Origin: Candidatus Yanofskybacteria bacterium
GTDB taxonomy: Bacteria; Patescibacteriota; Minisyncoccia; 2-02-FULL-40-12; IGHO2-01-FULL-4-A
NCBI GenBank assembly: GCA_016185545.1
Contig: JACPNJ010000002.1
Span: forward strand, 51,299 to 115,298
Length of the DNA: 64,000 nt
Reading direction: 5' to 3'
Positions 616 to 64,000 of the stretch are shown one piece after another. Within the stretch, counting starts at the first letter, position 1. Each line of letters begins with the position of its first letter. Below the pieces are notes generated by a model that did no database searches, was not told the DNA's origin, and saw nothing but the letters and a program-made list of their open reading frames with translations. A program made the translations under genes and the position numbers.

Positions 616-2685
<2,070 letters not shown>

Positions 2686-8611: not shown

Positions 8612-8662
8612 AGAAACTTAGAGGCTCAACCTCTCAAGAGAGGTTGAGCCTCTAAGTTTCTA
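8612..8662. terminator. ~23-bp stem hairpin gaaacttagaggctcaacctctc/gagaggttgagcctctaagtttc, same palindromic family as 2724..2757
   Basis: inverted repeat read directly; downstream of the metzincin gene. Confidence 0.6.
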
Positions 8663-9097: not shown

Positions 9098-9152
9098 AAA
9101 TTGAGCAGGTTATAGGTTATAGCAACCCACTCTATTACCTGTCAGCTTTCAC

Positions 9153-9674
9153 CTAATTTGAAAGAAATCTCTGCGATACTGTAGTCTGTATATCTATTGT
9201 CGCCTGCTGTCTGGTTTTGGCACTTCTAAGACTAGCAATAATGGTAACGTGCGGCTGTCGTTGATCGTCAACACTAATACCGGAAGGACAAAACTCTAAA
9301 CGAGTAAATTCAACAGTATTGGAACTTATAACACTATCGGTGCCATTTACTATCCGATGGACTGCATTTCCTGAAAGCGCATAGGTAATGCTTCCATTAA
9401 CCGGATGGGTAATACTCAAAGTATTTACGGGACAATCGGAAGCCGGACCGACAATTTGGCTCACGCGAATTTCTTTGGTCATAAATTCAAGAATAAAACC
9501 GGCATTTTCTACCGCTTGTTGAAGATTAAACGCCCGTCTTTGCAAATCCAAAGAGCTGATAAAAACTCCACCCATTAAAACTGCCAACACAGAAAACAAG
9601 AAAACAACCAAGATGGTTTCAACCAGGGTAAAACCAGCGTTTAGCGTTGAGTGTTTAGCGTTTAGAAATTTCAA
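9153..9674 (-). CDS. prepilin-type minor pilin/pseudopilin
   Basis: N-terminal cleavage/methylation motif GFTLVE followed by a hydrophobic helix. Confidence 0.7.
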   Translation of the reverse strand: MKFLNAKHSTLNAGFTLVETILVVFLFSVLAVLMGGVFISSLDLQRRAFNLQQAVENAGFILEFMTKEIRVSQIVGPASDCPVNTLSITHPVNGSITYALSGNAVHRIVNGTDSVISSNTVEFTRLEFCPSGISVDDQRQPHVTIIASLRSAKTRQQATIDIQTTVSQRFLSN

Positions 9675-9752
9675 TCAAGCTAGCGTTTAACGTTTAGCAT
9701 TTAGCGTTTAGTAAGTTCGACTATACGCTAGCCGCTAATCGCTAATTGCTCT
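9636..9752. repeat. TAGCGTT heptamer tandem array with a complementary GCTAATC arm (hairpin)
   Basis: tagcgtt units repeated more than 8 times, then gctaatcgctaattgc; overlaps the 5' end of the pilin gene. Confidence 0.7.
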
Positions 9753-10256
9753 TTATTTCCAGTTAAAAAGATGCTCCTCCGCGCTGATTGACTTGGACGC
9801 TCCACCACGTTCAATCCAAACTACATCCACAACAATTTTTTTCTCTACATCAGCAACCACGGTGTCAATTTCAATAGTGCGTTTAAATATCGTATCGCTG
9901 CCCATATCATAACTAAAAATACCGCTACCAGGATCTCTTTTTAAATTCGGATTGCTACCCAAGTCAATTAGTGCTTGTGAATCCCATTGAATCCTGTAGG
10001 TGCCATCGGGTATTGATGAACCAAAAGGACCGCCCAAAAACCAGTCTTGGTCACGCAGGTTTCGCACCACTTCAAACCCCTCTTGCGCAAGACCGCTAGC
10101 AATAAAATTATTTTTGATAGCGGTGGCACTTCTGTTGTTCATTGTCAAAATGAAAGTTGTCGCCGTAGAGGCCAAACCAAAAAGAAAAATAGCAATTAGA
10201 ACCTCAATCAACGTAAACCCATTTTTGATTTTTGATTTTTGATTTTTGATTTTCAT
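9753..10256 (-). CDS. prepilin-type minor pilin
   Basis: N-terminal GFTLIEVLIAIFLFGL motif. Confidence 0.7.
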   Translation of the reverse strand: MKIKNQKSKIKNGFTLIEVLIAIFLFGLASTATTFILTMNNRSATAIKNNFIASGLAQEGFEVVRNLRDQDWFLGGPFGSSIPDGTYRIQWDSQALIDLGSNPNLKRDPGSGIFSYDMGSDTIFKRTIEIDTVVADVEKKIVVDVVWIERGGASKSISAEEHLFNWK

Positions 10257-10822
10257 TTAAGATCTATCTGTCCTGACGTAAAAACATTTATTTCCGTGCA
10301 GGTGTTTTGCGCGCAATTATTCTGGTTTTTAAGCTGAATGGTTAAAGTTGCGGGTGGGATATTCAAAGAAGATTTGTTATTTATATATGTCTTCGGATCC
10401 GGTGGTTCAAAGAATATGTCATTAAATGATGAACGAAATTCCATGTTAGTATTGATTAAAATTTTATTTTCCGTGATCGGGTCGCCCGACTGATAGTTGT
10501 GGGTAGCGACCGAAGAACACGGCCCTGAAACTGGCACTGTTTTGACATAAATAAAATAAGAAGTTGGGTTTACATAATGAAAGCCGTAGCCGCATACCAG
10601 GTTACCCTGATAGCGGCTACCGGATAAAGCAAGGGACTGCGCCCTGCGAATATCCGACAAAACCACGGAGGCCGTTTGGACACGGGCGGTCTTACTTGTG
10701 GGCGATGACCTGAAATTTAAAATTAAAACCACTGAAAAAGTGGCAATAATAGCACTTACAACGAGTAACTCTATTATACTAAACCCGCCGTTCCCTGTAA
10801 TTATACCCCTCTCTTTTTTCAA
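10253..10822 (-). CDS. prepilin-type minor pilin
   Basis: N-terminal GFSIIELLVVSAII motif. Confidence 0.65.
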   Translation of the reverse strand: MKKERGIITGNGGFSIIELLVVSAIIATFSVVLILNFRSSPTSKTARVQTASVVLSDIRRAQSLALSGSRYQGNLVCGYGFHYVNPTSYFIYVKTVPVSGPCSSVATHNYQSGDPITENKILINTNMEFRSSFNDIFFEPPDPKTYINNKSSLNIPPATLTIQLKNQNNCAQNTCTEINVFTSGQIDLK

Positions 10823-10825
10823 CGA

Positions 10826-10905
10826 AGGTGTCAGGTGTCAGGTGTCAGGTGTCAGGTTTAATTTTCTGTAACCTGAAACCTGTAACCTGCAACCTAAAAC
10901 CTAAT
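10826..10905. repeat. GTCAGGT x4 heptamer array plus complementary ACCTGAA/ACCTGTA arm (hairpin)
   Basis: ggtgtcaggtgtcaggtgtcaggtgtcagg ... aacctgaaacctgtaacctgcaacct. Confidence 0.7.
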
Positions 10906-11309
10906 TATTCGTATTTTACCTCAATCAAATCTCCGGTTTTAATTTTAATTTTATTTATATCTGCCGTATTGACCGATTTTTTATTCAAATAAAAATTCCA
11001 AGTCAGGTTTCCAGGGTTAGTTGTACCATCTATTTTGGTCAGAACCACGCCGCTATTTTCCTGAATTGTGTACCTTAATTCAAAATCGCCGCCCAATGAA
11101 GAAGAATACAGGGCTTCAAGAATACTCATGTCGGCCATTACGGGACCCTTGAATTTTCTGCTCTTGCCGTTTTCAAAATTTATCACCATCTGCGCTTCGG
11201 CGCTTGCCTCAGGCAAGTTAAACTTAAAATAGAAAAAAACTCCGCCCAAAACTAAAATAGCAACTCCCGCGATCAAACTATTTCTTAATATTTTGTTAAT
11301 CTTACCCAT
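10905..11309 (-). CDS. hypothetical membrane-anchored protein
   Basis: 134 aa; N-terminal TM; 1-nt start/stop overlap with pilD. Confidence 0.45.
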   Translation of the reverse strand: MGKINKILRNSLIAGVAILVLGGVFFYFKFNLPEASAEAQMVINFENGKSRKFKGPVMADMSILEALYSSSLGGDFELRYTIQENSGVVLTKIDGTTNPGNLTWNFYLNKKSVNTADINKIKIKTGDLIEVKYE

Positions 11310-12109
11310 TACTTCAAAATAAATGGTACCGAAAAGAATAATGGCTTTATTTTTTCCAAAATCCCCTGGCCTAAGAAAATATAAGCGGTTGCAGAAAAAC
11401 TAATAAATGTTCCCAGTGGCAGCTTTGTTTTTAGGTTTGCCCGATAACTTGCTAACAAAACCAGCCCCGCCACCGTTCCCGCTATTATCGCGCCGTAAAT
11501 TATAATCAACCCGCCCCAAAGCCCAAAAATCAATCCAATCAGACCGGCCAATTTGGCGTCACCCAGTCCAAGCCAAGTTCCTCTTGATAAAAACCAAAGA
11601 AGAAAAAACGCTGAAAATAAAACGGCCGCACCGATAAAATTGTTAAAAGAAAAAATATTAAACCCGTAACCGCTAAATACCTGTTCAAAAATTCCATACC
11701 ACAAGACACCAAAAATCATTACGATCATTATTGAATCCGGCAGAATAAAATTTTTAAGATCAATCAGGGCGAGTATGAATAAAGATTCTAAAATAAAAAC
11801 CGTAAATAACCAATCAACAACTCCGGCCCGGTTAGTGAAGTAGAAAGACAGTAAAAAAATAGTTCCGGAATACAACTCAACCGCCGGGTACAGCCAAGAA
11901 ATCGGCTGGCGGCATTGCCGACATTGAGCTTTCAGCAAGAAAAAACTAACAACCGGGATTAAATCATGCCACGATATTTTTTTACGGCAGTTCGGACAAG
12001 CAGACCGTCCCCAAAAAATCCCCCACCCGCGCGGAACTCTGTAAATAACAACATTAGCAAAACTACCGACAACCAGACCAAGGAGGAAGATATAAATGAA
12101 CAGCAACAA
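11309..12109 (-). CDS. pilD: prepilin peptidase (A24 family)
   Basis: N-terminal CxxC...CxxC zinc-binding region (CPNCRKK...CRQCRQ); polytopic membrane protein of typical length. Confidence 0.85.
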   Translation of the reverse strand: MLLFIYIFLLGLVVGSFANVVIYRVPRGWGIFWGRSACPNCRKKISWHDLIPVVSFFLLKAQCRQCRQPISWLYPAVELYSGTIFLLSFYFTNRAGVVDWLFTVFILESLFILALIDLKNFILPDSIMIVMIFGVLWYGIFEQVFSGYGFNIFSFNNFIGAAVLFSAFFLLWFLSRGTWLGLGDAKLAGLIGLIFGLWGGLIIIYGAIIAGTVAGLVLLASYRANLKTKLPLGTFISFSATAYIFLGQGILEKIKPLFFSVPFILK

Positions 12110-12215
12110 AGTTTATAAAGTTCATCAAGTTCATAAAGTTTATCAAGCAAAAAACAACATTACTTTATTACTTTATAAACTTTTAACTTCAGGAACTTTT
12201 AACTAGCGCTTCGCG

Positions 12216-12782
12216 CTAATTCTGTCCTGCATCGTATATGCAATCATTTACAGCTGTCGTACATGTTTCAGTGATGCCAGGTGTGTCTGCCCCCCCCGAC
12301 GGAATCCCCCAGCCAACAACAGGTATGTCCCCGTCACTTTGAAGAGCGTTTCTGTTGTTTTGCTCTAACTCTGCCGAAACCCGCATCTTGGTTGGAGTGG
12401 TAGCTGGATCGGCAGTATATTCATAACACCTTACAGAAGCAGTTACGGCTCCGCTAAGCGTATTCGTGCAACCAACGGCCAACGGGTCTCGTGGAATATT
12501 TGTTAAGTAGGTCGGTGTGAGAGGGGTCATATCGGTCGTAACCATGTATTTACCTAGGTCATCAAAATAAAGCTCCAATGCCGAACGGATCTGATTAACA
12601 TCAGCAATACGCTTGGCATCTCTGGCCTTGGCGCGCGCCACGCCTAATTGCAACAATAACAAAGTTGCCAAAATTGAAATAATGGCAATAACAACCAACA
12701 ATTCGACCAGAGTGAAACCACGCATATCCTTTCTGCCCAGGTTAGGACTCTTAAAACCCAAAAAACTTAAAAGATTCGACAC
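12216..12782 (-). CDS. pilA: type IV pilin, probable major pilin
   Basis: RGFTLVELLVVIAIISILA class III signal/pilin N-terminus. Confidence 0.8.
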   Translation of the reverse strand: MSNLLSFLGFKSPNLGRKDMRGFTLVELLVVIAIISILATLLLLQLGVARAKARDAKRIADVNQIRSALELYFDDLGKYMVTTDMTPLTPTYLTNIPRDPLAVGCTNTLSGAVTASVRCYEYTADPATTPTKMRVSAELEQNNRNALQSDGDIPVVGWGIPSGGADTPGITETCTTAVNDCIYDAGQN

Positions 12783-12985
12783 TTTTTGACTAGCGACAGC
12801 GATTAGCGATTAGCGATTAGCAAAATACCAGACGCTAATTACAGCAAGCTATGCGCTTAATTAATAAAAAGATAATTAATAAAAAGACCTTTAATGAATT
12901 ATAAATCGCTTGAAAATTAAGGGCAAATGGAGTTATGCACAATGGGGCAGGGCTTAAGGTTTAGAAAATTTTACTATACCCTAGT

Positions 12986-14194
12986 TCAGGCGCCTCCAAC
13001 CAAACTATAAATCGGCAACAAAACTGCTGAAACCAAAAGGCCGACGCCTAGCCCCAAAATTAATATCAATACCGGTTCTATCAATTGTGAAAGATTCTGG
13101 ACGCTGTTTTCCGATTCTGCTTTATAGAAATTAAAAATATTTTCAAGCATAAAGTCGGTTCGGCCGGTTTTTTCGCCAATGGCCAGCATAGAAACAACCA
13201 GCGGCGGAATTTCTTTGTATTTCTCAAAGACTTCGGAAATTGTGCCCCCTCCTTGGACATTTTCCTTTGCCCTAAGCAAGATGTCTTGGTATGTGGCGTT
13301 TCCTACCACATCTGAAGTAATACTGATCCCATCTAGAATCGGCACGCCTGATTTTATTAGGACGGAAAGTGTCTCGGCAATGCGCGCCAGATAAAAACTT
13401 CTGATCGTTTTGCCAAATTGCGGCATTCTTAGTTTAAAATTATCAAACTGGCTGTGACCACGCGGCGTTTTAATGTAATAAAAAAGTAAAATTATTGCGC
13501 CAATTATCAAAATCAGCAAAAAAACAAAGTATTGGTTGATAAAACTGGTTACAGCAATTAAAACTTTGGTGGTAAATGGAAGATCCTGAACCCCGGCGTC
13601 CTCAACGATTGAAAGCAGTTTAGGCAAAACAGTGGTTATTAAAATTATCGTGACTACGACCATTGCAAAAAGAATAAAAATCGGATACGCCAGCGCTCCT
13701 TTGATTTTTGAATTCAGAGACGCGCTTCTTTCCAAGTAATCGGCAAGATAAGACAGCGTAGTCTGTAATTTACCCGCCGCCTCGCCAGCCCTTACCAAGC
13801 TGATGTAAAAACGGCCAAAAATTTTCTGGTGCTCGTTCAGGGCCAATGACAACGAGGCGCCACCCTCAATTGAGGAAATGATGATTAAGACAACTTTGCG
13901 GAACGCTTCTTTCTCTATCTGTCTGACCAACGCATGCAAACCCTCAACCAAAGGGACATCGGCTTCAACCAATGTCGCCATTTGCCTGGTGAATAACACA
14001 ATGTCTTTCTGCGACGGCCTGCTGAACGCTGTTGTCAAATCTTGAAGCATTAAGCCCTTTCTAGTTTCCTCCAAGCTTAAAATTGCCAAATTTTTTTGGT
14101 GTAAAACGTTAACTGCCTGGTCTTCAGAGGGTGCTTCAACCTTGCCAGTTATCAGCTCGCCGGTTTGAGTTTTAGCCTGATATAGAAATTCCAA
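12986..14194 (-). CDS. pilC: type IV pilus platform protein (GspF family)
   Basis: 402 aa polytopic protein with duplicated GspF-like domains. Confidence 0.85.
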   Translation of the reverse strand: MEFLYQAKTQTGELITGKVEAPSEDQAVNVLHQKNLAILSLEETRKGLMLQDLTTAFSRPSQKDIVLFTRQMATLVEADVPLVEGLHALVRQIEKEAFRKVVLIIISSIEGGASLSLALNEHQKIFGRFYISLVRAGEAAGKLQTTLSYLADYLERSASLNSKIKGALAYPIFILFAMVVVTIILITTVLPKLLSIVEDAGVQDLPFTTKVLIAVTSFINQYFVFLLILIIGAIILLFYYIKTPRGHSQFDNFKLRMPQFGKTIRSFYLARIAETLSVLIKSGVPILDGISITSDVVGNATYQDILLRAKENVQGGGTISEVFEKYKEIPPLVVSMLAIGEKTGRTDFMLENIFNFYKAESENSVQNLSQLIEPVLILILGLGVGLLVSAVLLPIYSLVGGA

Positions 14195-14195
14195 A

Positions 14196-14276
14196 ACTAG
14201 GTTCTAGGTTCTAGGTTCTAGGTTCTAGGTTCTAGTTAAATTCAAACTAGAAACTAACAACCAGAAACTAGCAACT
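14196..14276. repeat. AGGTTCT x5 heptamer array plus complementary AGAAACT arm
   Basis: taggttctaggttctaggttctaggttctaggttctag ... aactagaaactaacaaccagaaactagcaact. Confidence 0.7.
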
Positions 14277-15444
14277 ATTTGAGGAGGGTTCTTAATTCCG
14301 CCGGATGCAATGAATAAAACTCGGCTTGTTCATATGAAATTTCGCCGCGGCGCACCAAATCAGCCAAGGAACGATTCAGTGAAATCATACCTGAATCAGA
14401 ACCGGTTTCTATGGCCAAATTTAATTGTTGGGTCTTGTTTTCGCGAATAATATTCCGTACGGCTGGAGTGGCAATCATTACTTCAATTGCCGGTATTAGT
14501 CCGCCTTTAATTCGTGGAATTAATCTTATGGAAACAACACCTGAGATGGTACTGGCTAATTGGGAAATAATCTGCCCTTGCTGTCCCGGCGGAAAAATAT
14601 TAATAATTCTTTCTATGCTTTGGGCGGCGTTATTGGTGTGGAGAGAAGCAAAAACAAGATGTCCGGTTTCAGCCGCCGTCACGGCTGTGCTGATAGTGTC
14701 ATAGTCGCGCATCTCCCCCACCATTATTACATTTACATTCTCGCGAAAAGTCGAACGCAAGGCTTTATTGAAAGAAACTGTGTCAAAGTAAACCTCGCGT
14801 TGGTCAATTATACTTTTATCTGAAGTAAAAATGTATTCTATGGGATCTTCTATGGTTATTATTTTTTCAGCCCTTTCATGATTAATCAAATCGATCACGG
14901 CCGCCATGGTCGTGGACTTGCCGTGGCCATTGGGTCCTACCACGAGCACAAAGCCCTGTGATAACTTGGCAAATATTTTTAAAATGGGCGGCAAATTAAG
15001 TTCTTCTATCGATTTAATATCTTCGGGAATAAGACGGAAAGCGGCGGCAAAACTGCCCCTAGTTTGATAAACATTAACCCGAAAACGAAGCTTACTGCTT
15101 ATTTCATAAGCGAAATCAAGCTCTTTTTCGATCAGAAATTTTTCTTTCGGCCCATCGGTCAGCAATGATAAAACCATATTATTAAGCAATTGCTTATCCA
15201 AAATTTTATGGTCAATCAGCGGTATTAACCGCCAGTCTACGCGAATAGCCGGATAATAACCGGGCGATAAATGCAAATCGGAACCGCCTTTCTGCGCGGT
15301 AACGTTCAGGAGCTCGTCCAACTGCTTTTTGTAATCTTGCAAATCAGCGGCATGTGAAACTGGCTGCGGGACAATGATCGGCTGCGGAGTTGCAACATTT
15401 TTAGCCATCGCTTCCTGTATTTTTTGTGATGTATCGTCGCTCAT
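14275..15444 (-). CDS. pilT: type IV pilus retraction ATPase
   Basis: 389 aa; Walker A GPNGHGKST; PilT-like length and motifs. Confidence 0.8.
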   Translation of the reverse strand: MSDDTSQKIQEAMAKNVATPQPIIVPQPVSHAADLQDYKKQLDELLNVTAQKGGSDLHLSPGYYPAIRVDWRLIPLIDHKILDKQLLNNMVLSLLTDGPKEKFLIEKELDFAYEISSKLRFRVNVYQTRGSFAAAFRLIPEDIKSIEELNLPPILKIFAKLSQGFVLVVGPNGHGKSTTMAAVIDLINHERAEKIITIEDPIEYIFTSDKSIIDQREVYFDTVSFNKALRSTFRENVNVIMVGEMRDYDTISTAVTAAETGHLVFASLHTNNAAQSIERIINIFPPGQQGQIISQLASTISGVVSIRLIPRIKGGLIPAIEVMIATPAVRNIIRENKTQQLNLAIETGSDSGMISLNRSLADLVRRGEISYEQAEFYSLHPAELRTLLK

Positions 15445-15524
15445 AGCGATAAGTTAAAAGTTTATAAAGTTAAAAAGATAATCACCCTCACTTTAAAAAC
15501 TTTATGAACTTGATAAACTTTTAA

Positions 15525-17279
15525 CTAATTCTCTTCGGCTTCCTGCGCCACCGTCAGCAACTCTTCCAGTGAGGTTACGCCGTTTAATACTTTTATTATA
15601 CCGTCCTGGAACATGGTTATCATGCCCTGGCGTTTTGCTTCCGCGCGCAGTTCTTCCTCGGAAATATTAGTCAGTATTATTTTTTCAAGCTCATCGGTCA
15701 TCGCTAATGTTTCAAATACACCGACTCGTCCTTTATAGGCACGGCCACCGCATTCTTTACAACCCTCGGAGCCTGGCTTATAAATCTCAAAATTGCCGTT
15801 GGGAAGATCCTTTTTGGTCACGGAAGGCATTTTTTCAATGGCTTGGCGAATCATAAACTCTTCGCCCTGATTGGCTCTTTCCTTAACCTTGCAAACCTGA
15901 CAAAGACGCCTTGCCAGTCTTTGAGCTACGACAAGATTGAGGGTTGGGGCAAGGAGGTATTTTTCAACATTCATATCTATCAATCGCGGAATTGCACCAA
16001 TAGTATCATTTGTATGAAGCGTTGAAAGAACGACATGGCCAGTTAAAGCCGCCTGTGTTGCTAAACCGGCAGTTTCACTGTCGCGTATTTCTCCGACCAT
16101 GATAATATCCGGGTCCTGCCGCAAAATATGTCTTAAACCGTTTGCAAAAGTATACCCGATTTCTTCATGAGTTTGCGATTGATTAACTCCGTCCACAAAA
16201 TATTCAATCGGGTCTTCTAGAGTAACTATGTTTACTTCTTCATCGTTAATTTCACGTAATACCGCCGCTAGTGTGGTTGATTTGCCGGAACCGGTAGGTC
16301 CGGTAATCAGAATTTCGCCAAATGGTTTAACCATATTCTCACGAATCAGTTCCAATGATCTTCCCTCAAGCCCCAATTCAGTCAGTTTAATGTCGCCAAC
16401 CAATGGATCTAAAATTCTTAATACAACCTTTTCCCCGTTTCTGGTAGGAAAGGTAGAAACTCTGAAATCAACCCGTCTTTCCCCCACCTTAGTGGAAAAT
16501 CTGCCGTCCTGTGCCAGACGGGTTTCGTCAATTTTCAAATCCGAAAGTATTTTAATTCTTGTCACTATTGCTGAAAGCAATCTGATGGGCAAAGAAAGGA
16601 CTGTCCGCAATACGCCGTCAATGCGAAATCTCAACCGGATCTTGTCTTCAAACGGTTCAATATGAATATCTGAGGCGCGGGTCTCAACTGCATGTTTGAC
16701 AACAATGGCAACAATGCGGGTTACTGGGGCTTCGGCGGTTATTTCTTCCAAGCCACCGGTTTTTTCGCTGATTTTGAGTTCTTTTTGGGTCGCTTCTTCA
16801 GTCAGTTGTTCCAGCGCCCGACCCACTTCGGATGTCAACGTACGCACGTTTTTGCTCAAATTATCAAAATCCTTGTAACTTATGAGGTATTTTTCAAGAT
16901 TAAGGCCGCGATCAAAAGCGATAAACTTAACAGCCTCAAGAGCGTTAATATTTTCAGGATCTATGATGCCGACTTTCAATACTGAGTTATCTCTGGCAAA
17001 GGGTAAAATTTTATAATAACTGATTATATTTTCCGGAATATCCTTAACCACCTCTCTGTCAATTTCAACGCCTGAAATATCAGTAACCGGAAGCTGATAA
17101 ATCCTGGATTTGATTTTTAAAAGTTCGGGGTCGCTAATTAAATTCTTTTTAATCAAAATTTCTCCGAAATCTTTCTGATTTTCGGCTGCCTCTTTTTCAG
17201 CATCATTAACAACTTCGGGACTTAAAAGTTTCTGCCTTTGTAGTTCCTCTATTAATAATTGTGGGAGTTGATAAGCCAA
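15525..17279 (-). CDS. pilB: type IV pilus assembly ATPase (GspE family)
   Basis: 584 aa; Walker A GPTGSGKST; C-terminal tetracysteine motif (CQVC...CKEC). Confidence 0.9.
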   Translation of the reverse strand: MAYQLPQLLIEELQRQKLLSPEVVNDAEKEAAENQKDFGEILIKKNLISDPELLKIKSRIYQLPVTDISGVEIDREVVKDIPENIISYYKILPFARDNSVLKVGIIDPENINALEAVKFIAFDRGLNLEKYLISYKDFDNLSKNVRTLTSEVGRALEQLTEEATQKELKISEKTGGLEEITAEAPVTRIVAIVVKHAVETRASDIHIEPFEDKIRLRFRIDGVLRTVLSLPIRLLSAIVTRIKILSDLKIDETRLAQDGRFSTKVGERRVDFRVSTFPTRNGEKVVLRILDPLVGDIKLTELGLEGRSLELIRENMVKPFGEILITGPTGSGKSTTLAAVLREINDEEVNIVTLEDPIEYFVDGVNQSQTHEEIGYTFANGLRHILRQDPDIIMVGEIRDSETAGLATQAALTGHVVLSTLHTNDTIGAIPRLIDMNVEKYLLAPTLNLVVAQRLARRLCQVCKVKERANQGEEFMIRQAIEKMPSVTKKDLPNGNFEIYKPGSEGCKECGGRAYKGRVGVFETLAMTDELEKIILTNISEEELRAEAKRQGMITMFQDGIIKVLNGVTSLEELLTVAQEAEEN

Positions 17280-17356
17280 AGAACTGAGGTTTAGAGTTCA
17301 GAGTTTAGAGTTTAGAAAATAAACTACACTCTATATCCTGCGCCCTATACCCCGTC

Positions 17357-17644
17357 TTAGAATGGCGCAAAGGGATCAGCGCGCCCCGTTGAACCGGGTT
17401 GAACCGGAGATTCCCCAAAAATCCGCAAAGCCTTAAAAGCCAAGCCGTCCAATACGGAAAAATCAAGCTTTAAGTCTTTAAATTTGGCGAGTCCGTCATC
17501 GGCAGAAATATCAATTGGTGAAATTGGAATAACCTGATCTTGCAATGCCTGGCTGTAATAAAAATAACCAACAATAAGACCAAACAGGGCTATTGCAACT
17601 AATATTAATAAACTAGTTGTGTTTCTGGTTGGAGCAATCGGCAT
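17357..17644 (-). CDS. small membrane protein, pilus-locus associated (PilP-like?)
   Basis: 95 aa; single TM; position between pilO and pilB. Confidence 0.35.
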   Translation of the reverse strand: MPIAPTRNTTSLLILVAIALFGLIVGYFYYSQALQDQVIPISPIDISADDGLAKFKDLKLDFSVLDGLAFKALRIFGESPVQPGSTGRADPFAPF

Positions 17645-17714
17645 TAACTAAGTTGTGGGTTACAGGTTATAGGTTATAGAAAACTTACTATCACCCATCA
17701 CCCGATTCCTATTC

Positions 17715-18236
17715 CTACTTCAAATAATATGCATTCATCTTAATCCCAAAATTAATATTACCCAAAGAGATAGTGGAAGACACGGCAGTGATGTCAAAAA
17801 TGTCATAAAGCCGAAGGCTTTGCTCCGCTAACTTAAGAAAATTAATAAAGGCCGGATAGGTACCGACAATATCTGCGCCGATAAAAATCTTTTTATATTC
17901 CGATTCTCCCACAAACAGCGCCTCCGAAGTGGTCAAACCTGATAATTGCATACCAGATTGCTCCATAATTTTATGGATACTTGATACTAACTCGTCAATC
18001 TGTTTACGTTCCGGCAGGAACGCCTTGATTTTACTGATATCCGCCTGGCGCAAACCGGCTTGACGATCTAATTCAAAAATATTATCTAAAAGCGCCGTTT
18101 TCCCATTTAAAAACAGCTGTCTGGAATTAACTGCCTCTTTGGCAGCTTTAATCGCGTCGTACTGAGGCAAAACCAAAACAAAAACCAAAAAAAGCGCGAA
18201 AGCAAAAATAATTGCGGCAAGGGTGTTCTTCTGCAT
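17715..18236 (-). CDS. pilO: PilO-like pilus biogenesis protein
   Basis: 173 aa; N-terminal TM plus coiled region; synteny with pilM/pilN. Confidence 0.55.
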   Translation of the reverse strand: MQKNTLAAIIFAFALFLVFVLVLPQYDAIKAAKEAVNSRQLFLNGKTALLDNIFELDRQAGLRQADISKIKAFLPERKQIDELVSSIHKIMEQSGMQLSGLTTSEALFVGESEYKKIFIGADIVGTYPAFINFLKLAEQSLRLYDIFDITAVSSTISLGNINFGIKMNAYYLK

Positions 18237-18331
18237 CGCTTATGCTTAGCAACGCCAATATGCGAATTGCGTATCCTGTTTGCAAAGCAATCTAGGAACA
18301 TCTTAATTCGCGCATTTGCGTCAGGTTTTAT

Positions 18332-18880
18332 TTATTTCTTCATCAAAAACTTATTCGAATCAAAAAACAATTGCATTGTTAATTCCACTTGCCCCGTGGG
18401 TTGGCTTTGAACTTTGTTTAAGATTATGTCTGTTAGGGAATCAACGGTATAAAACGACGCAATCTGTCTGGCAATTACGGTATAGTTGGCGGCTACAGCG
18501 TTAATTATCATCTTCTTGCCTAAAGCATCGGCGCTCACCGATGTGAATTGCACTTGCGGCTGTACCAAACTTTGAATCTTGATAAAAGCTTCGGACCAGA
18601 AGAAATGTGAACTTATGAGTGGATTCACCACGGTTAACTGTTTATTTAAACCCAAAAGCCGTGTCTCCAATTCTTTATTTCTGGATTTTTCCAAATCTAC
18701 CAGCTGGTCATCTATAGAAGAAAGGGTAGAAAACAATGACTGCCTATATGTCAATAAGATAAAATAAAGACCCAGTGTCAGCGCTAAAATAATAAAACTA
18801 AAAACCAGGAATCTGTTTTGTCCCGGCAATTTTACTTCTATTTTCTTCCTAGTTTCCGGAAGAAGTTGTAATCCTCCCAC
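18332..18880 (-). CDS. pilN: PilN-like fimbrial assembly protein
   Basis: 182 aa; N-terminal TM; synteny after pilM. Confidence 0.6.
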   Translation of the reverse strand: MGGLQLLPETRKKIEVKLPGQNRFLVFSFIILALTLGLYFILLTYRQSLFSTLSSIDDQLVDLEKSRNKELETRLLGLNKQLTVVNPLISSHFFWSEAFIKIQSLVQPQVQFTSVSADALGKKMIINAVAANYTVIARQIASFYTVDSLTDIILNKVQSQPTGQVELTMQLFFDSNKFLMKK

Positions 18881-18881
18881 A

Positions 18882-19068
18882 TCAGGCAGAGTTAGGTTAT
18901 AGGTTATAGGTTATAGGTTTTAGGTTTTAATTATCCGAAAACCAAAAAGACTAACAACCCTCCTTTTATTATAAACTAAGGCGTTGATTTTGTTATGCAC
19001 ATATGCGCCTAGGGTTAGATTTTAGATTTGATTATCTAACACCTATCACCTATAACCTAACACCTAGT
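18882..19068. repeat. AGGTTAT/AGGTTTT heptamer array plus complementary CACCTAT/AACCTAA arm between pilN and pilM
   Basis: ggttataggttataggttataggttttaggtttt ... cacctatcacctataacctaacacctag. Confidence 0.7.
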
Positions 19069-19069
19069 T

Positions 19070-20191
19070 TCAGATTTCTCTCATTGCAAGTCCGATGGCT
19101 AAGGTAAGAGTAGTATTAAGTTCCGACTGTATTTTTTCTAATTCCTTGGGTACAATGAGCCGGGCTGAAGGATTGCCAATGGCCAACGGGAGTCCAAGTT
19201 TGGTTCCAAAATAATTCGCAAAATTAGGCATATTGGCAAGACCGCCAACTAAAATCACTCTGCTAATTTTGATATTTTTAAGTTCTTCGTAACTATGGAT
19301 TGTTTTTTTGGTCTCAAAGGCCATCATATCAATAAGAGAACTCATGGCCTGTTGGATCACATTATTATTCGCGTCTTTAATCCCGAGGCTTCTTTTCAAT
19401 TCTTCGGCCCGCTTTAAACTAATATTCAAGGAGTTGGATATCGTTTTCGTTATTTCGAATCCCCCGATTTCGTAGTTGTGGCCTATTCTCTCATAGCCCC
19501 CATCTACAATCAGGATTGAAGTGCTACGTCCGCCGATATTGATTATGGCAGCCGGACTTAAATCATTGCCCAAAAGCGCTCTTATTAAAGCTGAATTTTC
19601 TAATTCTAAAGCTCGGAGATTCAAACCGGCTAGTTTCATGATATCCCTGTAGCGCTCCGTCTCCTGTTTCGGTACCGCGACAAGAAAAACTTCCACAACT
19701 GGCGGCTTGGCACCGCCGGATATCGGAGGTACGAGATTAGAAGTTGAAATTGATTGATTTAACTTCTGATTTGCTATATTAATTATTGACCAGTCAAGAA
19801 CCACATCATTGATCGGCAGAGGGATATATTTGCGGGCTTCAAACGGGATACTCTTGGCCATGTCTTTTTCTGAAAGGTACGGCATAGTTATTATAGTGGA
19901 AAATGTTGAAAAAGAGGGAATAGATGCTACAGCGTCGCGAGTTTTGATTTTACTGCGCTTAAGAACCTCGCGCATTCCCCATGCTAAGTCCTGACTGGAT
20001 AATTGCGCCGCCCCGCCTGCGGAACGGTTTGCCGCATTTAACGCCTCGTCGACTGATTCAAGCTCAAAAAGGCCGTAATTTTCCAGCTTGAAACGTCCCG
20101 CCTCTTTCGATAATTCTACTATCTTAATAGAAGCCGTACCGATATCTATGCCAAGTTTACTTTTGGGTTTGCCAAAGTCGAAAAAAGACAA
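19070..20191 (-). CDS. pilM: type IV pilus assembly protein, actin-like ATPase fold
   Basis: 373 aa; LGIDIGTASIKIVEL N-terminus. Confidence 0.85.
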   Translation of the reverse strand: MSFFDFGKPKSKLGIDIGTASIKIVELSKEAGRFKLENYGLFELESVDEALNAANRSAGGAAQLSSQDLAWGMREVLKRSKIKTRDAVASIPSFSTFSTIITMPYLSEKDMAKSIPFEARKYIPLPINDVVLDWSIINIANQKLNQSISTSNLVPPISGGAKPPVVEVFLVAVPKQETERYRDIMKLAGLNLRALELENSALIRALLGNDLSPAAIINIGGRSTSILIVDGGYERIGHNYEIGGFEITKTISNSLNISLKRAEELKRSLGIKDANNNVIQQAMSSLIDMMAFETKKTIHSYEELKNIKISRVILVGGLANMPNFANYFGTKLGLPLAIGNPSARLIVPKELEKIQSELNTTLTLAIGLAMREI

Positions 20192-20195
20192 AAAA

Positions 20196-20268
20196 GGTGT
20201 CAGGTGTCAGGTGTCAGGTGTCAGGTTTTTTATGTAACCTGAAACCTATGACCTGTAACCTATTTCAA
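20196..20268. repeat. GTCAGGT heptamer array plus complementary arm, in the divergent pilM/comF intergenic region
   Basis: ggtgtcaggtgtcaggtgtcaggtgtcaggtttttt atgtaacctgaaacctatgacctgtaacct. Confidence 0.7.
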
Positions 20269-20296
20269 CTATTGTCATTATACCACTAAAGGTTTT

Positions 20297-21112
20297 ATGG
20301 TTTATGCACATCCCGTACAAACAAGTTCGTTGGGGAATACTTCATTCGGGGCACATATGTCATCTTTCAAAGAACAATTTTTGGATATCCTTTTCCCGCG
20401 GCACTGTTTGGGCTGTGATGTTTTATTGGGAAAAGAAGCGGTTTCTTATGTTTGCCGGCGCTGTTTAAAGACCATCCCTTTCACTGAAAGTTTTGCTTGC
20501 ACGTTTTGCAAATCGCCGGTTAAAAACGGCAAAACTTGTCCGTATTGCATTAAAAATCATTTTCTGGACGAACTGTTTGTTACAACTTCTTATGAAAATC
20601 CGCTGGCAGAAAAAATGCTGAAAACCATGAAATACCGATTCGTCGCATCACTGGCAAACGATATTGCCGATCTAATGATCGGGTATCTTAAAAAGAGGGC
20701 AGTAATCGGACTAGGACCTTACTCAACGCCTTCCTTAGTTGTGCCGGTACCGCTGCATTTTAAAAGATTGAATTGGCGCGGATTCAATCAGGCCGAGATT
20801 ATCGGCCGGCAAATCAGCAATTATTTAGAATTGGATTTTGCCGCAGACGCACTCAAACGCGTCAAGAATAAAAAGCCGCAAGCCGATATGCCGAACCGAT
20901 TTTTACGCATTAAAAACGCTCAAAATGTTTTTAAACTTAATTCAATTCATATACATCATAAGACAATAGATGACACATTAACTGGCAAAATAGTGCTCCT
21001 TGTGGATGATATCTCAACTACCGGTTCAACGTTAGACGATTGCGCCCGCGCCTTAAAAGGCGCGGGCGCGAAAAAAGTGATCGGTTTCGTCTTTGCAAGA
21101 AATAAAATCTAA
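20297..21112 (+). CDS. comFC: ComF-family competence phosphoribosyltransferase
   Basis: N-terminal Cys4 zinc finger (CLGC...CRRC...CTFC...CPYC); C-terminal PRTase motif VLLVDDISTTGST. Confidence 0.8.
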   Translation: MVYAHPVQTSSLGNTSFGAHMSSFKEQFLDILFPRHCLGCDVLLGKEAVSYVCRRCLKTIPFTESFACTFCKSPVKNGKTCPYCIKNHFLDELFVTTSYENPLAEKMLKTMKYRFVASLANDIADLMIGYLKKRAVIGLGPYSTPSLVVPVPLHFKRLNWRGFNQAEIIGRQISNYLELDFAADALKRVKNKKPQADMPNRFLRIKNAQNVFKLNSIHIHHKTIDDTLTGKIVLLVDDISTTGSTLDDCARALKGAGAKKVIGFVFARNKI

Positions 21113-21987
21113 TCTAAAATGGTTTTGGCAATTTTATTCAATTCTTCGAGTGTAGAAAACTTAATAACAATATTGCCGCCGTTGATGCCGGTTCTGATGA
21201 AAACCGCCGCGCCGAGATTTTTGGACAGATTCTGCTGAAGTTCTTCAAACTTGGACCCCGCTGTTTGCGGCATTTCCCTTCCGGCTGATTTGTGCGCCTT
21301 TGCCGCTCCCTCAAGATCCCGCACCACGATATTGCCGGTAAGGATTTGCTTATACATCTCTCGCTGTTTACTCTCGTCCTTGAAAGCCAAAAGCGTTCGC
21401 GCGTGAGTTCGGCTGATTTTACCCACTCGCAATGCCGCTTTAATATCAGCCGGCAAATCAAGCAGCCTTATGGCATTGGCGACAACTTCGCGGCTTTTGC
21501 CGACTTTATTTGCAATATCTTTCTGGGTCAGCTTAAACTCGCTGGCTAACCTGGCATAAGCCTCGGCTTCTTCAAGCGGATTAAGGTCTTCGCGCTGAAT
21601 ATTTTCAACCAACGCCACCTCTAATTTAAGCCGGCTTTCGTCAAAATTATCTTTCACGATAACCGGCACATGCGGCAATCCAGCCATTTTTGCCGCGCGC
21701 CATCGGCGCTCCCCCGCCAGCAGTTCGTAACTGACATCCAGCCCCCTTTCGGTTTCCTCCTCCATCTTTGTAACAAGCAATGGCTGCAAGATACCGTATT
21801 TCTTGATTGAAGCCGCAAGTTCCTTGAGCCCGTCTTTATCAAAATCACGCCTCGGCTGATTAGCGTTGGGCTTAATTTTATTTATCTCAATATAAAAGAC
21901 GTTGTCCTGAATTTTTGGCGTAACCTTATTTGTCTTAGCCGGTATCAGCGACTCAAGGCCGCGACCCAGACCGAATAACTTCTTCAA
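21109..21987 (-). CDS. parB: chromosome partitioning protein ParB
   Basis: GERRWRAAKMAGL ParB box; HTH; 292 aa. Confidence 0.9.
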   Translation of the reverse strand: MKKLFGLGRGLESLIPAKTNKVTPKIQDNVFYIEINKIKPNANQPRRDFDKDGLKELAASIKKYGILQPLLVTKMEEETERGLDVSYELLAGERRWRAAKMAGLPHVPVIVKDNFDESRLKLEVALVENIQREDLNPLEEAEAYARLASEFKLTQKDIANKVGKSREVVANAIRLLDLPADIKAALRVGKISRTHARTLLAFKDESKQREMYKQILTGNIVVRDLEGAAKAHKSAGREMPQTAGSKFEELQQNLSKNLGAAVFIRTGINGGNIVIKFSTLEELNKIAKTILD

Positions 21988-22056
21988 ATTAGGTTTTAGG
22001 TTTTAGGTTTTAGGTTTTAGGAGTTTATCTAACACCTAAAAACTAACACCTAACAC
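21988..22056. repeat. AGGTTTT x4 heptamer array plus complementary AACACCT arm between parB and parA
   Basis: aggttttaggttttaggttttaggttttagg ... aacacctaaaaactaacacctaacacctagg. Confidence 0.7.
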
Positions 22057-22818
22057 CTAGGCAAGCCGAAGTATTTCTTCGGCGAGCTCTTTGTATGCTT
22101 GCGCGCCTTTGGACTTTTCGTCAAATTGCAAAATGGTTTTGCCGAATCCAGGGGCTTCGGCAAGAGAAACCGAACGCGGGATTATTGTTTCAAAAACATG
22201 GCCGGGAAAATTCTTTTTTACTTCGGCCACAATCTCATTGGCCAGTTTGTTTCTCTTATCATACATTGTAAGCAAAACGCCCAAAATCTGCAATCGCGGA
22301 TTAAGCGAGGTACGCACCAAATCAATGGTTTTAAACAGTTGGGTCAAACCTTCAAGCGCGTAATACTCGCACTGAACCGGTATAATTACCTGCTCCGCCA
22401 CCGCAAGACCGTTAATGGTAAGTAAACCCAGCGATGGCGGACTGTCTATTAAAATATAATCATAATTGGTGCGAATTTTGTTGAGGGCGTTTTTTAATTT
22501 AAACTCCCGCTCTTCCATATCAACTAGCTCAACGGTGGCGCCGGCAAGGCTTGCCGCCGAAGGTAAAATATCAAAACCGAAAATTCCGCTTTTTCTTATG
22601 ATTGCCTCCGGTTCTTCGCCGGCAACCAGCGTGTGGTACAGATTGACATGATCGTCTTCCAGTTTGACGCCAAGCCCCGATGTCGCATTTGCCTGCGGAT
22701 CCAAGTCCACCAGCAAAACATACTTGCCCATCGCCGCAAGATAACTCCCTATTGAGCAACTTGTAGTTGTTTTCCCAACGCCCCCTTTCTGATTGAAGAT
22801 TGAAATTATACGGGCCAT
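22057..22818 (-). CDS. parA: ParA/Soj partitioning ATPase
   Basis: deviant Walker A KGGVGKTTT; 253 aa. Confidence 0.9.
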   Translation of the reverse strand: MARIISIFNQKGGVGKTTTSCSIGSYLAAMGKYVLLVDLDPQANATSGLGVKLEDDHVNLYHTLVAGEEPEAIIRKSGIFGFDILPSAASLAGATVELVDMEEREFKLKNALNKIRTNYDYILIDSPPSLGLLTINGLAVAEQVIIPVQCEYYALEGLTQLFKTIDLVRTSLNPRLQILGVLLTMYDKRNKLANEIVAEVKKNFPGHVFETIIPRSVSLAEAPGFGKTILQFDEKSKGAQAYKELAEEILRLA

Positions 22819-55318: not shown

Positions 55319-55395
55319 TCAGGTTACAGGTTACAGGTTACAGGTTACAGGTTTTTACTGGCACCTGAACCCTGACACCTGAAACCTAGTTTATA
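55319..55395. repeat. AGGTTAC x4 heptamer array plus complementary CCTGAAC/CCTGACA arm
   Basis: caggttacaggttacaggttacaggttacagg ... cacctgaaccctgacacctgaaacctag. Confidence 0.7.
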
Positions 55396-63765: not shown

Positions 63766-63836
63766 GTTACAGGTTACAGGTTACAGGTTACAGGGAAATT
63801 TTTCTTACCTGGCCCCTGAAACCTGACACCTGAAAC
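63766..63836. repeat. AGGTTAC x4 heptamer array plus complementary arm (acctggcccctgaaacctgacacctgaaacct)
   Basis: read directly; the 3' arm shares acctggcccctg with the glyA intragenic insertion. Confidence 0.7.
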
Positions 63837-64000
63837 CTAGTTTTTTAGTCGTTGTTTTACCATTTCTAAAATTTTATCCTGCAGTACGGTTTCCTGCACC
63901 CCTGAATTCATCTCACGTAATATAACCGTACCATCTAACGCTTCTTTCTGACCCATAATTAAAGTATATTTAATCCCAAGGCGATTAGCGATTCTTAATT
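63837..64000 (-). CDS. C-terminal anticodon-binding domain of a class II aminoacyl-tRNA synthetase (His/Pro/Thr-type), partial at the window edge
   Basis: translated C-terminus ...GIKYTLIMGQKEALDGTVILREMNSGVQETVLQDKILEMVKQRLKN* resembles the HisRS/ProRS anticodon-binding domain. Confidence 0.45.
   Translation of the reverse strand, partial: LRIANRLGIKYTLIMGQKEALDGTVILREMNSGVQETVLQDKILEMVKQRLKN

What the first reader, a model, noticed from the sequence alone, without database searches (positions are those of the whole stretch)
9636..22056. Gene junctions are occupied by hairpins built from tandem heptamer repeats, a genome-specific terminator/repeat system
At least twelve junctions carry N tandem copies of a 7-mer immediately followed by tandem copies of its approximate reverse complement. 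That gives long, imperfect arrays-as-hairpins. Examples are 9636..9752, 10826..10905, 12100..12215, 12783..12830, 14196..14276, 17280..17320, 17644..17680, 18882..19068, 20196..20268 and 21988..22056, plus 55319..55395 and 63766..63836 outside the stated span. The 7-mer differs from site to site (AGGTTAT, AGGTTTT, AGGTTAC, GTCAGGT, AGGTTCT, TAGCGTT, AGAGTTT, AAGTTTAT) but most share an AGGT core. Several arrays overlap predicted start regions and encode odd N-terminal extensions. They are not CRISPR: the units are 7 nt with no spacers. They look like a lineage-specific family of expandable terminator hairpins or a mobile micro-repeat.
Basis: seen in the sequence. Interest (0 to 1): 0.55.

Follow-up and report, generated by a model that had tools for sequence, protein, structure and literature searches.

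The report
Heptamer-repeat hairpins filling gene junctions
In this uncultivated groundwater bacterium (Candidatus Yanofskybacteria) and its relatives, the gaps between pilus genes are filled by about 75-base hairpins whose two arms are runs of 7-base repeats; they are not terminators but a dispersed repeat family that sits exactly between one gene's stop codon and the next gene's start, which is unusually often TTG.

Summary
Independent assemblies are identical across them. The window is from Cand. Yanofskybacteria (CPR). About 120 related loci carry the same kind of element, with different units, at orthologous junctions of a conserved type IV pilus operon.

Anatomy across 59 hairpins:
- Stems have a median of 30 pairs and loops a median of 8 nt.
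- Most have regular mismatches each heptad (in 19 examined unit by unit, every one had a non-pairing position); only 1 of 59 is perfect.
- The 3' arm is usually a perfect array and the 5' arm degenerate, whichever way the element is inserted.
- The stem starts a median 3 nt after the upstream stop and ends a median 7 nt before the downstream start.
- That start is TTG in 19 of 26 cases, against 6 of 213 elsewhere.

Copies are dispersed: 93% identical at different junctions in different species. One orthologous hairpin is 92% conserved where third codon positions are 43-46% identical.

They are not intrinsic terminators. They lack a G+C-rich stem and T tract, one follows a conserved promoter, and canonical terminators exist elsewhere.

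Best reading: REP/MITE-like elements built from heptamer repeats that act as transcribed stem-loops. The closest tested analogue is the H. influenzae hmw 5'-UTR repeat hairpin.

The parts
9098..9152 (-). Short heptad hairpin (AGGTTAT units) between pilin genes 9153-9674 and 8687-9097
9636..9665 (-). AGCGTTT array inside the prepilin leader coding sequence (LNAKHST-LNAG); an in-frame 21-nt duplication
9682..9750 (-). Junction hairpin of 31 pairs (TAGCG/ACGCTA units), between pilins 9753-10256 and 9153-9674
10221..10253 (-). Perfect (ATTTTTG)x4.7 array with no heptad-periodic partner arm (only a weak non-periodic pairing); it encodes the leader MKIKNQKSKIKNG|FTLIE. Gain or loss of one unit would shift the frame, so this is a candidate on/off switch
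10826..10902 (-). Junction hairpin of 33 pairs. Sense 5' arm is degenerate AGGTTnC; 3' arm is perfect (ACCTGAC)x4.6. It runs from 2 nt after the stop to 3 nt before the TTG start
12110..12215 (-). pilA>PilD hairpin with 8-9-nt AAGTT/AACTT units; 92% identical to its orthologue in L004
12794..12860 (-). (AGCGATT)x3.4 array with a weak partner, between PilC and the major pilin gene
14205..14277 (-). PilT>PilC hairpin of 32 pairs. The TAG stop is its first triplet; the perfect (AACCTAG)x5.6 arm ends 10 nt before the TTG start
15445..15524 (-). PilB>PilT hairpin, AAGTT family (period 8-9); 81% identical to its orthologue in L004
17286..17353 (-). p95>PilB hairpin of 30 pairs; homologous to the one in L003 (72% identical)
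17663..17704 (-). PilO>p95 hairpin of 17 pairs (GGGTGAT / ATAACCT units); 80% identical to L003
18888..19067 (-). PilM>PilN junction. A 5' arm (TAGGTGT-type, 19036-19067) and a 3' arm (ATAACCT-type, 18888-18934) flank a conserved internal promoter (GTGCATAACA, 17 nt, TATAAT; 18968-18996)
20192..20263 (-). Hairpin in the pilM 5' UTR; the perfect (ACCTGAC)x4.6 arm ends 4 nt before the TTG start
20277..20285 (-). Extended -10 box TGGTATAAT of the pilM promoter, conserved in L003, L087, L088 and L089, just upstream of the hairpin
21990..22059 (-). ParA>ParB hairpin of 31 pairs. The TAG stop is its first triplet and a TTG start follows. It is 93% identical to an element at the PilT>PilC junction of L160
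55317..55391 (-). Hairpin of 29 pairs between the peptidase M16 and AI-2E transporter genes. It is a paralogue of 63771-63838 and the inverted form of 10826-10902
63771..63838 (-). Hairpin of 25 pairs upstream of the HIT-family gene; the upstream gene's TAG stop overlaps the start of the 5' arm and a TTG start follows
2106..2148 (-). Heptad array inside the DNA ligase LigA gene; it gives a 7-residue (21 nt, three units) loop insertion relative to solved LigA structures
38919..38949 (+). AACTAGA-type array encoding the N-terminus of IF2, on a + strand gene; a single arm with no partner
8613..8660 (-). For contrast: a canonical terminator (20-bp G+C-rich perfect stem, then a T-rich tail) after the last pilin gene

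Best explanation
These are members of a lineage-wide family of small dispersed palindromic elements (like REP or MITE elements) whose arms are heptamer simple-sequence repeats.

Shown:
- They colonise the few bases between a stop codon and the next start codon, or lie just after a promoter.
- They often supply the TAG stop themselves.
- Their arms carry stop triplets that close all three reading frames.
- They are copied between junctions in either orientation.
- They change by whole units, consistent with slipped-strand mispairing; that the 3' arm is kept perfect by such slippage is inference.

Inferred:
- They are transcribed within the pilus operon mRNA and fold into stems of about 30 bp that are deliberately imperfect.
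- These stems act after transcription as end-protecting or RNase III-type processing hairpins.
- They mask the start region of the downstream cistron.
- With a weak TTG start and no Shine-Dalgarno sequence, translation of the downstream gene then depends on ribosomes that end the upstream gene at the stem base, or on cleavage of the stem.

They are not transcription terminators.
For: - Period-7 arrays are far above chance and specific to the lineage.
- 59 periodic hairpins were found in 36 loci: stem median 30 pairs (interquartile range 26.5-32), loop median 8, and only 1 of 59 perfect.
- Orthologous junctions carry hairpins with unrelated units, while many relatives have compact 0-15-nt junctions, so the elements are gained and replaced.
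- Copies are dispersed. WIN ParA>ParB and L160 PilT>PilC are 93% identical. Within the window, 10823/20192 are the inverted forms of 55319/63766.
- There is constraint. The pilA>PilD hairpin is 92% identical between the window and L004, and PilB>PilT is 81%, where third codon positions are 43-46% identical and unrelated hairpins align at 42-52%.
- Variation in the degenerate arm falls on the non-pairing positions of the unit: 0.307 against 0.094 per site, p = 2e-8.
- The same two-unit mismatch is kept in both orientations.
- There is a link to direction. The 3' arm is the more perfect one in 26 hairpins and the 5' arm in 8, among deduplicated relatives.
- There is a link to translation. The stop-to-stem distance has a median of 3 nt and stem-to-start a median of 7 nt.
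- Starts preceded by a periodic element are TTG 19, GTG 4, ATG 3. Other starts are ATG 196, GTG 11, TTG 6.
- Shine-Dalgarno sites are rare in this genome.
- At pilM the hairpin follows a conserved extended -10 box.
- One unit gained or lost separates L087 and L089.
- Arrays are 2.8 times denser inside pilus clusters than outside.
- Precedents exist. The hmw1A (ATCTTTC)n repeat arm pairs with an imperfect arm in a 5'-UTR hairpin cut by RNase III (PMC12721329). REP ends supply TAG stop codons and insert within genes (PMC3733652).
Against: - There is no transcript data, so transcription, folding and processing are all inferred.
- There is no wobble signature for the mRNA strand. A.C mismatches (102) outnumber G.T (71) on the sense strand, so the antisense strand or DNA would fold equally well.
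- The TTG link is not explained by predicted pairing. Changing T to A alters the ensemble energy by +0.26 kcal/mol on average, p = 0.44.
- No RNase III gene and no transposase were found in the sequence held. This is uninformative for the whole genome.
- Some arrays are single arms inside genes, which shows that the repeat-making process also runs without any hairpin role.
Confidence: 0.5

Rival explanations
1. The elements are selfish or neutral. A lineage-specific tendency to slip by 7 nt, plus copying of palindromic elements, produces them. They persist only where they do no harm: tiny intergenic gaps and surface loops of proteins. Stop codons in all frames and a regenerated start (last T of the element plus TG) are survival filters, not functions.
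For: - Arrays without partners occur inside genes as in-frame multiples of three units (LigA, pilin leader).
- Other, non-periodic palindromic families also invade junctions in relatives, for example CCCGTTAGAG...CTCTAACGGG in L020, L026 and L040.
- The families are dispersed and differ between genomes.
- Many relatives do without hairpins at the same junctions.
- There is no strand-specific wobble signature.
- Heptamer repeats are the commonest long simple repeats in bacteria generally (Mrazek 2007, as cited in PMC4679880).
Against: - The orthologous hairpin is 92% conserved where synonymous sites are saturated.
- Stem length is uniform at about 30 pairs across unrelated units and species.
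- Mismatches are retained rather than random, and variation is confined to the unpaired positions.
- There is a strong, family-independent link with TTG specifically rather than GTG.
- Elements are enriched in the pilus operon.
Confidence: 0.25
2. The elements are intrinsic terminators or partial attenuators between cistrons. The short T run that includes the TT of the TTG start would serve as the U tract, setting a gradient of expression along the operon.
For: - They are hairpins at the 3' ends of genes.
- T is mildly enriched in the 5 nt before the start (0.44 against 0.33), and TTG adds two more T.
- A few sites have clear T runs, for example 20191: CACCTTTTTTGTCTTTTTT.
Against: - None is called by the terminator scan, whereas true terminators in the same window are.
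- The stems are about 30 bp, A+T-rich and mismatched every 7 nt.
- They occur at about 12 junctions of one essential operon that has only two or three promoter candidates, so even weak termination at each would starve the distal genes.
- One sits just after a conserved promoter.
- T enrichment is weak.
Confidence: 0.07
3. The elements are contingency (phase-variation) switches for pili. Copy-number changes in the perfect arm alter hairpin register or reading frame, and so switch or tune pilus genes from generation to generation.
For: - The architecture matches the hmw1A switch.
- One unit differs between L087 and L089 in the pilM 5' UTR.
- The (ATTTTTG)x4.7 array lies inside a pilin leader, where gain or loss of one unit would shift the frame.
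- Arrays are enriched in the pilus cluster.
Against: - Arrays are identical in four population pairs at more than 99.9% identity.
- Arm lengths cluster tightly at 4-5.5 units instead of ranging widely.
- Consensus assemblies cannot show variation within a population.
Confidence: 0.1
4. The function is at the DNA level: cruciforms or hairpins in single-stranded DNA serve as binding or recombination sites (like integron attC sites or IS200/IS605 ends), or as sites for nucleoid proteins.
For: - Both strands fold equally well, and A.C mismatches are at least as common as G.T.
- The elements are imperfect palindromes between genes, and GTTAGGT resembles an attC R' box (own knowledge).
Against: - Gene order is conserved whether or not hairpins are present, so these are not mobile cassettes.
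- No integrase or transposase was found among the window proteins scanned.
- A DNA-level role gives no reason for the TTG link or the stop/start geometry.
Confidence: 0.06

Closest known systems
H. influenzae hmw1A/hmw2A 5'-UTR heptamer repeat hairpin (PMC12721329)
   Same: - A perfect tandem heptamer array forms one arm of a long, imperfect hairpin; the other arm is a degenerate complement.
- It lies upstream of a surface-adhesion gene.
- The stem has mismatches and bulges.
- Repeat number changes between strains.
   Different: - There, the repeat is the 5' arm, with 10 or more units, at a single locus. Here the perfect arm is usually the 3' one, with 4-5.5 units.
- Here the elements are at many junctions inside an operon, belong to dispersed families, and are tied to the stop codon and a TTG start.
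- RNase III cleavage and copy-number-dependent expression are demonstrated there and untested here.
REP/REPIN and other small palindromic intergenic repeats (GTAG/CGTC REPs, MITEs such as Correia elements, Rickettsia RPEs) (PMC3733652)
   Same: - Dispersed, genome-specific families of palindromic elements.
- Found mostly just downstream of genes, and their ends can supply the TAG stop.
- Some copies lie inside genes in frame.
- Probably transcribed as RNA hairpins.
- Both orientations occur.
   Different: - REP stems are 5-13 bp without internal periodicity. Here the stems are about 30 bp and made of 7-nt tandem units, with a mismatch in each unit.
- No RAYT or other transposase, terminal inverted repeat or target duplication was found.
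- One arm is kept homogeneous.
Heptanucleotide long simple repeats: cyanobacterial STRR, Xanthomonas GGGAATC, Beggiatoaceae TAACTGA (PMC4692102, PMC4679880)
   Same: - A lineage-specific excess of tandem heptamers in intergenic DNA.
- TAACTGA arrays lie within a few bases of start codons in genomes that use few Shine-Dalgarno sites.
- Occasional inverted pairs occur in Xanthomonas.
   Different: - Those genomes use one or a few fixed units, mostly as single direct arrays.
- Here the unit differs from site to site, and the rule is an inverted pair of arrays forming a hairpin of fixed length.
Phage T7-type intercistronic RNase III processing hairpins (own knowledge)
   Same: Imperfect stems with internal loops lie between cistrons of a polycistronic mRNA. 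They would leave protective hairpins at the new ends.
   Different: Processing is not shown here, and T7 sites have no repeat structure.

Membership tests
Intrinsic (Rho-independent) terminator | Short G+C-rich stem (about 5-15 bp) with a 3-8-nt loop | tested here: not met
   Stems are about 30 pairs, A+T-rich and 77% Watson-Crick, with mismatches each heptad. No junction hairpin was returned by the scan, while 8613-8660 was.
Intrinsic (Rho-independent) terminator | T (U) tract directly after the stem | tested here: not met
   T frequency is only 0.42-0.46 in the 5 nt before the start, against 0.21-0.41 elsewhere. A start codon follows within a median of 7 nt.
Intrinsic (Rho-independent) terminator | Placed at the ends of transcription units | tested here: not met
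   The hairpins occupy about 12 junctions inside a conserved operon and one 5' UTR after a conserved promoter.
CRISPR array | Repeats of 23-50 nt separated by unique spacers, with cas genes | tested here: not met
   Units are 7-9 nt, head to tail, with no spacers. No cas-like domains were found in the proteins scanned.
TIGR-Tas array (PMC12045711) | Units of about 36 nt with alternating edge and loop repeats and two 9-nt spacers, 5-15 units, next to a Nop-domain Tas gene | tested here: not met
   Neither a 36-nt unit nor a spacer structure is present. The neighbouring genes are pilus genes.
Heptanucleotide long simple sequence repeats (STRR-type class) | Tandem 7-nt units in excess over other periods, mainly intergenic and lineage-specific | tested here: met
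   The specific STRR unit sequences are not present, so this is the same class but not the STRR family itself.
Repeat-hairpin cis-regulatory element (hmw1A type) | A perfect heptamer array pairs with an imperfect complementary arm to form a long hairpin | tested here: met
Repeat-hairpin cis-regulatory element (hmw1A type) | The hairpin is transcribed as a 5' UTR and cleaved by RNase III | not testable with these tools
   A conserved promoter upstream of the pilM hairpin implies transcription. There are no RNA data, and no rnc gene in the fragments held.
Repeat-hairpin cis-regulatory element (hmw1A type) | Repeat number varies between strains and sets expression | tested here: inconclusive
   One 7-nt unit differs between L087 and L089, but arrays are identical in four pairs at more than 99.9% identity. 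Expression was not testable.
REP/REPIN or MITE-like dispersed palindromic element | Multi-copy dispersed families, mostly extragenic and near gene ends | tested here: met
REP/REPIN or MITE-like dispersed palindromic element | Associated RAYT or other transposase; conserved terminal tag, terminal inverted repeats or target duplication | tested here: inconclusive
   No transposase was found among 20 window proteins, and no consistent target duplication was seen by eye. TAG is common in the units. The whole genome is not available.
Integron attC sites | Imperfect palindromes bounding mobile gene cassettes next to an integrase | tested here: not met
   Gene order is fixed across about 120 loci with or without hairpins. 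No integrase was found.

The most novel reading that the evidence does not exclude
The stop-hairpin-TTG module is a distinct device for translational coupling. A stem of about 30 bp, mismatched every 7 nt so that it unzips easily, brings the upstream stop codon and a weak, Shine-Dalgarno-less UUG start to within a few nucleotides of each other. The downstream cistron is then translated only by ribosomes handed over at the stem base, as in viral shunting or termination-reinitiation. Direction-dependent slippage in the 3' arm provides a heritable way to tune each gene.
Probability: 0.15. Interest if true: 0.8.

Novelty: new variant of a known kind. Interest (0 to 1): 0.6.

Why it matters
CPR bacteria have tiny, tightly packed genomes, and type IV pili are central to how they attach to hosts. 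It is unexpected that up to twelve junctions of their pilus operon carry about 75 nt of extra structured sequence, conserved in one case more strongly than the neighbouring genes.

If the elements act on RNA, they would extend a mechanism proven at one locus in one pathogen (the hmw repeat hairpin) to a lineage-wide, operon-wide system. They would also tie hairpins to start-codon choice in organisms that hardly use Shine-Dalgarno sites.

If they are selfish, they show how a repeat can be built to invade stop/start junctions without killing either gene.

Either way there are practical consequences. They break short-read assemblies and mislead gene callers about starts and N-terminal extensions.

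Tried and rejected
- **Wobble test for an mRNA-level structure.** A strand-neutral alignment of the arms gave A.C 102 and G.T 71 on the sense strand, so there is no excess of G.U. Sense and antisense folding energies in the window differ only slightly.
- **TTG selected because it pairs.** Changing T to A, G or C at the first start position does not systematically change the ensemble energy: mean +0.26 kcal/mol, p = 0.44. The start codon is not consistently paired.
- **TTG as part of a T tract.** T is only mildly enriched upstream.
- **Programmed bypass (hopping).** By eye, the last sense codons of upstream genes (AAA, GCC, GAA, TTC) do not match a TTG landing site.
- **Replication-strand explanation.** GC skew follows gene orientation, so no origin could be placed.
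- **Copy-number polymorphism in the source population.** Exact-protein look-ups found only two Logan samples, with contigs that end inside the arrays. The ParB look-up found nothing.
- **Known RNA families.** No Rfam family matches the junctions at gathering thresholds.
- **First hairpin aligner.** Its scoring was too permissive and ran into the flanks; it was replaced.
- **CRISPR, TIGR and attC readings** were considered and rejected (see the membership tests).

Full report

Yes.
- Perfect arrays of three or more copies occur nine times at period 7 and never at periods 4-6 or 8-12.
- A looser criterion (28-nt windows, at least 80% self-match) gives 16 arrays, against 0.01 in block shuffles.
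- Most junction sequences fold far better than dinucleotide shuffles, with z-scores of -3 to -7.
- Two independent Logan assemblies (SRR12113420, SRR12113424) are 100% identical to the window through the interior arrays, and their contigs end inside perfect arrays. The arrays are therefore real, and they break short-read assemblies.

**2. Setting.**

Genes 8687-20191 on the minus strand form a type IV pilus cluster: PilM, N, O, a 95-aa protein, PilB, PilT, PilC, the major pilin, prepilin peptidase PilD, a 134-aa protein and four minor pilins. ComF, ParB and ParA follow.

The closest genomes are Candidatus Yanofskybacteria (CPR/Paceibacteria). The best PilB match is 87%, and the gene order is conserved in 38 genome loci and 80 metagenome loci.

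Period-7 arrays are a trait of the lineage, with no excess at any other period:

| Sequence set | Arrays | Length |
|---|---|---|
| Related genome loci | 45 | 606 kb |
| Related metagenome loci | 88 | 996 kb |
| Unrelated bacteria | 11 | 730 kb |

**3. Anatomy.**

In the mRNA sense, each window element reads: stop codon, a degenerate 5' arm, a loop, a perfect 3' arm, a few bases, then the start codon.

Across 59 periodic hairpins in the pilus clusters of 36 loci:
- Fifty have period 7, four period 8 and four period 9.
- The stem median is 30 pairs (interquartile range 26.5-32) and the loop median is 8 nt.
- 78% of positions are Watson-Crick and 12.5% are transversion mismatches.
- Only one hairpin is perfect.

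In 19 hairpins examined unit by unit, each has at least one unit position where the two arms never pair. Variation within the degenerate arm falls on those positions: 0.307 against 0.094 per site, p = 2e-8.

The arms are rich in stop triplets. The 5' arm closes all three frames in 38 of 59 hairpins, against 12% of shuffles. In a quarter of cases the upstream gene's stop lies inside the element.

**4. Evolution.**

Many relatives have compact junctions of 0-15 nt where the window has about 80 nt, and orthologous junctions carry hairpins with unrelated units. The elements are therefore gained and replaced.

They form dispersed families:
- 55319 and 63766 share the same order of variant units, as do 10823 and 20192.
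- The ParA>ParB element is 93% identical to one at the PilT>PilC junction of L160.
- L004 has three near-identical AAGTT-type copies.

Elements 10823 and 20192 are the inverted forms of 55319 and 63766 (84-85% identical inverted, 75-78% direct). Yet in all four the arm on the 3' side of the transcript is the perfect one. Among deduplicated relatives the 3' arm is the more perfect in 26 hairpins and the 5' arm in 8. Homogenisation therefore follows the direction of the genes, not the element's own polarity. The mismatch between the two unit types (AGGTGTC and AGGTTAC) is kept in both orientations.

Slippage is seen directly. L087 and L089 (96.8% identical) differ by exactly one unit in the pilM 5'-UTR hairpin. 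Four population pairs at more than 99.9% identity show no difference.

Inside genes, arrays appear as in-frame multiples of three units. LigA has a 7-residue insertion relative to solved structures, and a pilin leader has an LNA...LNA duplication.

**5. Constraint.**

Between the window and L004, third codon positions are 43-46% identical. The pilA>PilD hairpin is 92% identical over 99 nt, and the PilB>PilT hairpin is 81% identical.

Between the window and L003, two hairpins are 72-80% identical, against 45-59% at third positions. Unrelated hairpins align at 42-52%. At least some elements are therefore under purifying selection.

**6. Link with translation.**

The stem begins a median of 3 nt after the stop and ends a median of 7 nt before the start. 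Shine-Dalgarno sites are rare in this genome.

Start codons were compared at positions anchored by homology, where the alignment begins at residue 1:

| Upstream sequence | TTG | GTG | ATG |
|---|---|---|---|
| Periodic element present | 19 | 4 | 3 |
| No periodic element | 6 | 11 | 196 |

This holds across unrelated unit families. Within the window's own clade both states occur: PilC has TTG or GTG where a hairpin is present and ATG where the junction is compact.

I could not explain the association by predicted pairing or by a T tract. It is the main unexplained result.

**7. Not terminators.**
- The scan that finds the true terminator at 8613-8660 calls none of these hairpins.
- The pilM hairpin lies just downstream of an extended -10 box that is conserved in five loci.
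- The PilM>PilN arms flank a promoter conserved in six of the relatives compared (L003, L005, L006, L008, L023, L040).

**8. RNA or DNA?**

The evidence is mixed.
- For a role tied to transcription or translation: the direction bias, the stop/start geometry, the TTG link and the 2.8-fold enrichment in the pilus operon.
- Against an mRNA-specific structure: there is no excess of G.U over A.C on the sense strand.

**9. Comparison with known systems.**
- Heptamers are the commonest long simple repeats in bacteria, and slippage is the proposed cause (PMC4679880, PMC4692102).
- REP elements supply TAG stops, insert within genes and are thought to act as RNA hairpins (PMC3733652).
- The closest tested analogue is the H. 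influenzae hmw 5' UTR. There a perfect (ATCTTTC)n arm pairs with an imperfect arm, RNase III cuts the stem, and expression and repeat number depend on it (PMC12721329).
- CRISPR, TIGR arrays and integron attC sites fail their defining features.

**10. Verdict.**

This is a new variant of known kinds. It combines a dispersed palindromic element with a heptamer repeat hairpin, has a fixed stem length of about 30 bp with retained mismatches, and sits in a stop-hairpin-TTG arrangement.

What the element is and how it evolves rest on direct evidence. What it does is inferred.

Noticed in passing
window 38205-38328 (+) and 31123-31237 (+): Two matches to the Rfam LOOT RNA family (79.8 and 49.9 bits; gathering score 46.4). 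They lie in the long gaps beside a repeated gene set: 275-aa proteins of unknown function, an AAA_5 ATPase and a VWA protein.
   Followed up: no
window 32524-32590, 35135-35200, 38039-38105 (+): A repeat of about 65 nt (TTTCGCCTTGGG..CTTGGAT..CCTTGAT..GGTATTCGAAAAA) follows three + strand genes. It is a different junction repeat family, with its own CTTG periodicity of about 7-9 nt.
   Followed up: no
window about 2725-2765 and 8613-8660 (-): The same G+C-rich palindrome (GAGGCTCAACCTCT...AGAGGTTGAGCCTC) with a T-rich tail occurs after two operons. It is a canonical terminator that is itself a dispersed repeat.
   Followed up: partly
window 20277-20315 and 18968-19000 (-); L003, L005, L006, L008, L023, L040: A motif (T)GTGCATAAC(A), followed about 17-18 nt later by TAnAAT, lies upstream of both pilM and pilN. 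The pilN copy is conserved in L003, L005, L006, L008, L023 and L040. It is probably the -35 region or a regulator site of the pilus promoters. In some relatives without a hairpin the -10 box lies 6-7 nt before the pilM start, which suggests a leaderless mRNA.
   Followed up: partly
window 18237-18331: The PilN>PilO junction holds a 95-nt non-periodic imperfect palindrome where L003 has only 10 nt. It is another kind of junction insertion.
   Followed up: no
L020 PilT>PilC, L026 PilB>PilT, L040 PilN>PilO and p134>pilin junctions: A separate MITE-like palindromic family with ends CCCGT(T/A)(A/C)GA...TC(T/G)(A/T)ACGGG is inserted at gene junctions. In L020 and L026 it is followed directly by ATG; in L040 the two copies lie further from the aligned gene start.
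   Followed up: no
L087 and L089, p95>PilB junction: A non-periodic palindromic insertion of about 100 nt is also followed by a TTG start. The TTG link may therefore extend beyond heptad elements.
   Followed up: no
window 27658-29868: A TaqI-like restriction endonuclease gene lies next to a fusion of a LexA DNA-binding domain, an S24 peptidase and an N6/N4 DNA methylase. This is an unusual methylase architecture.
   Followed up: no
window 26481-27566 and tRNA 27543-27630: An ORF with HTH and LAGLIDADG domains ends within a tRNA gene call.
   Followed up: no
window 38867-40459: IF2 appears to lack the long N-terminal region. The GTPase motif starts about 30 residues in, and the first 20 residues are encoded by a heptad array.
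   Followed up: no
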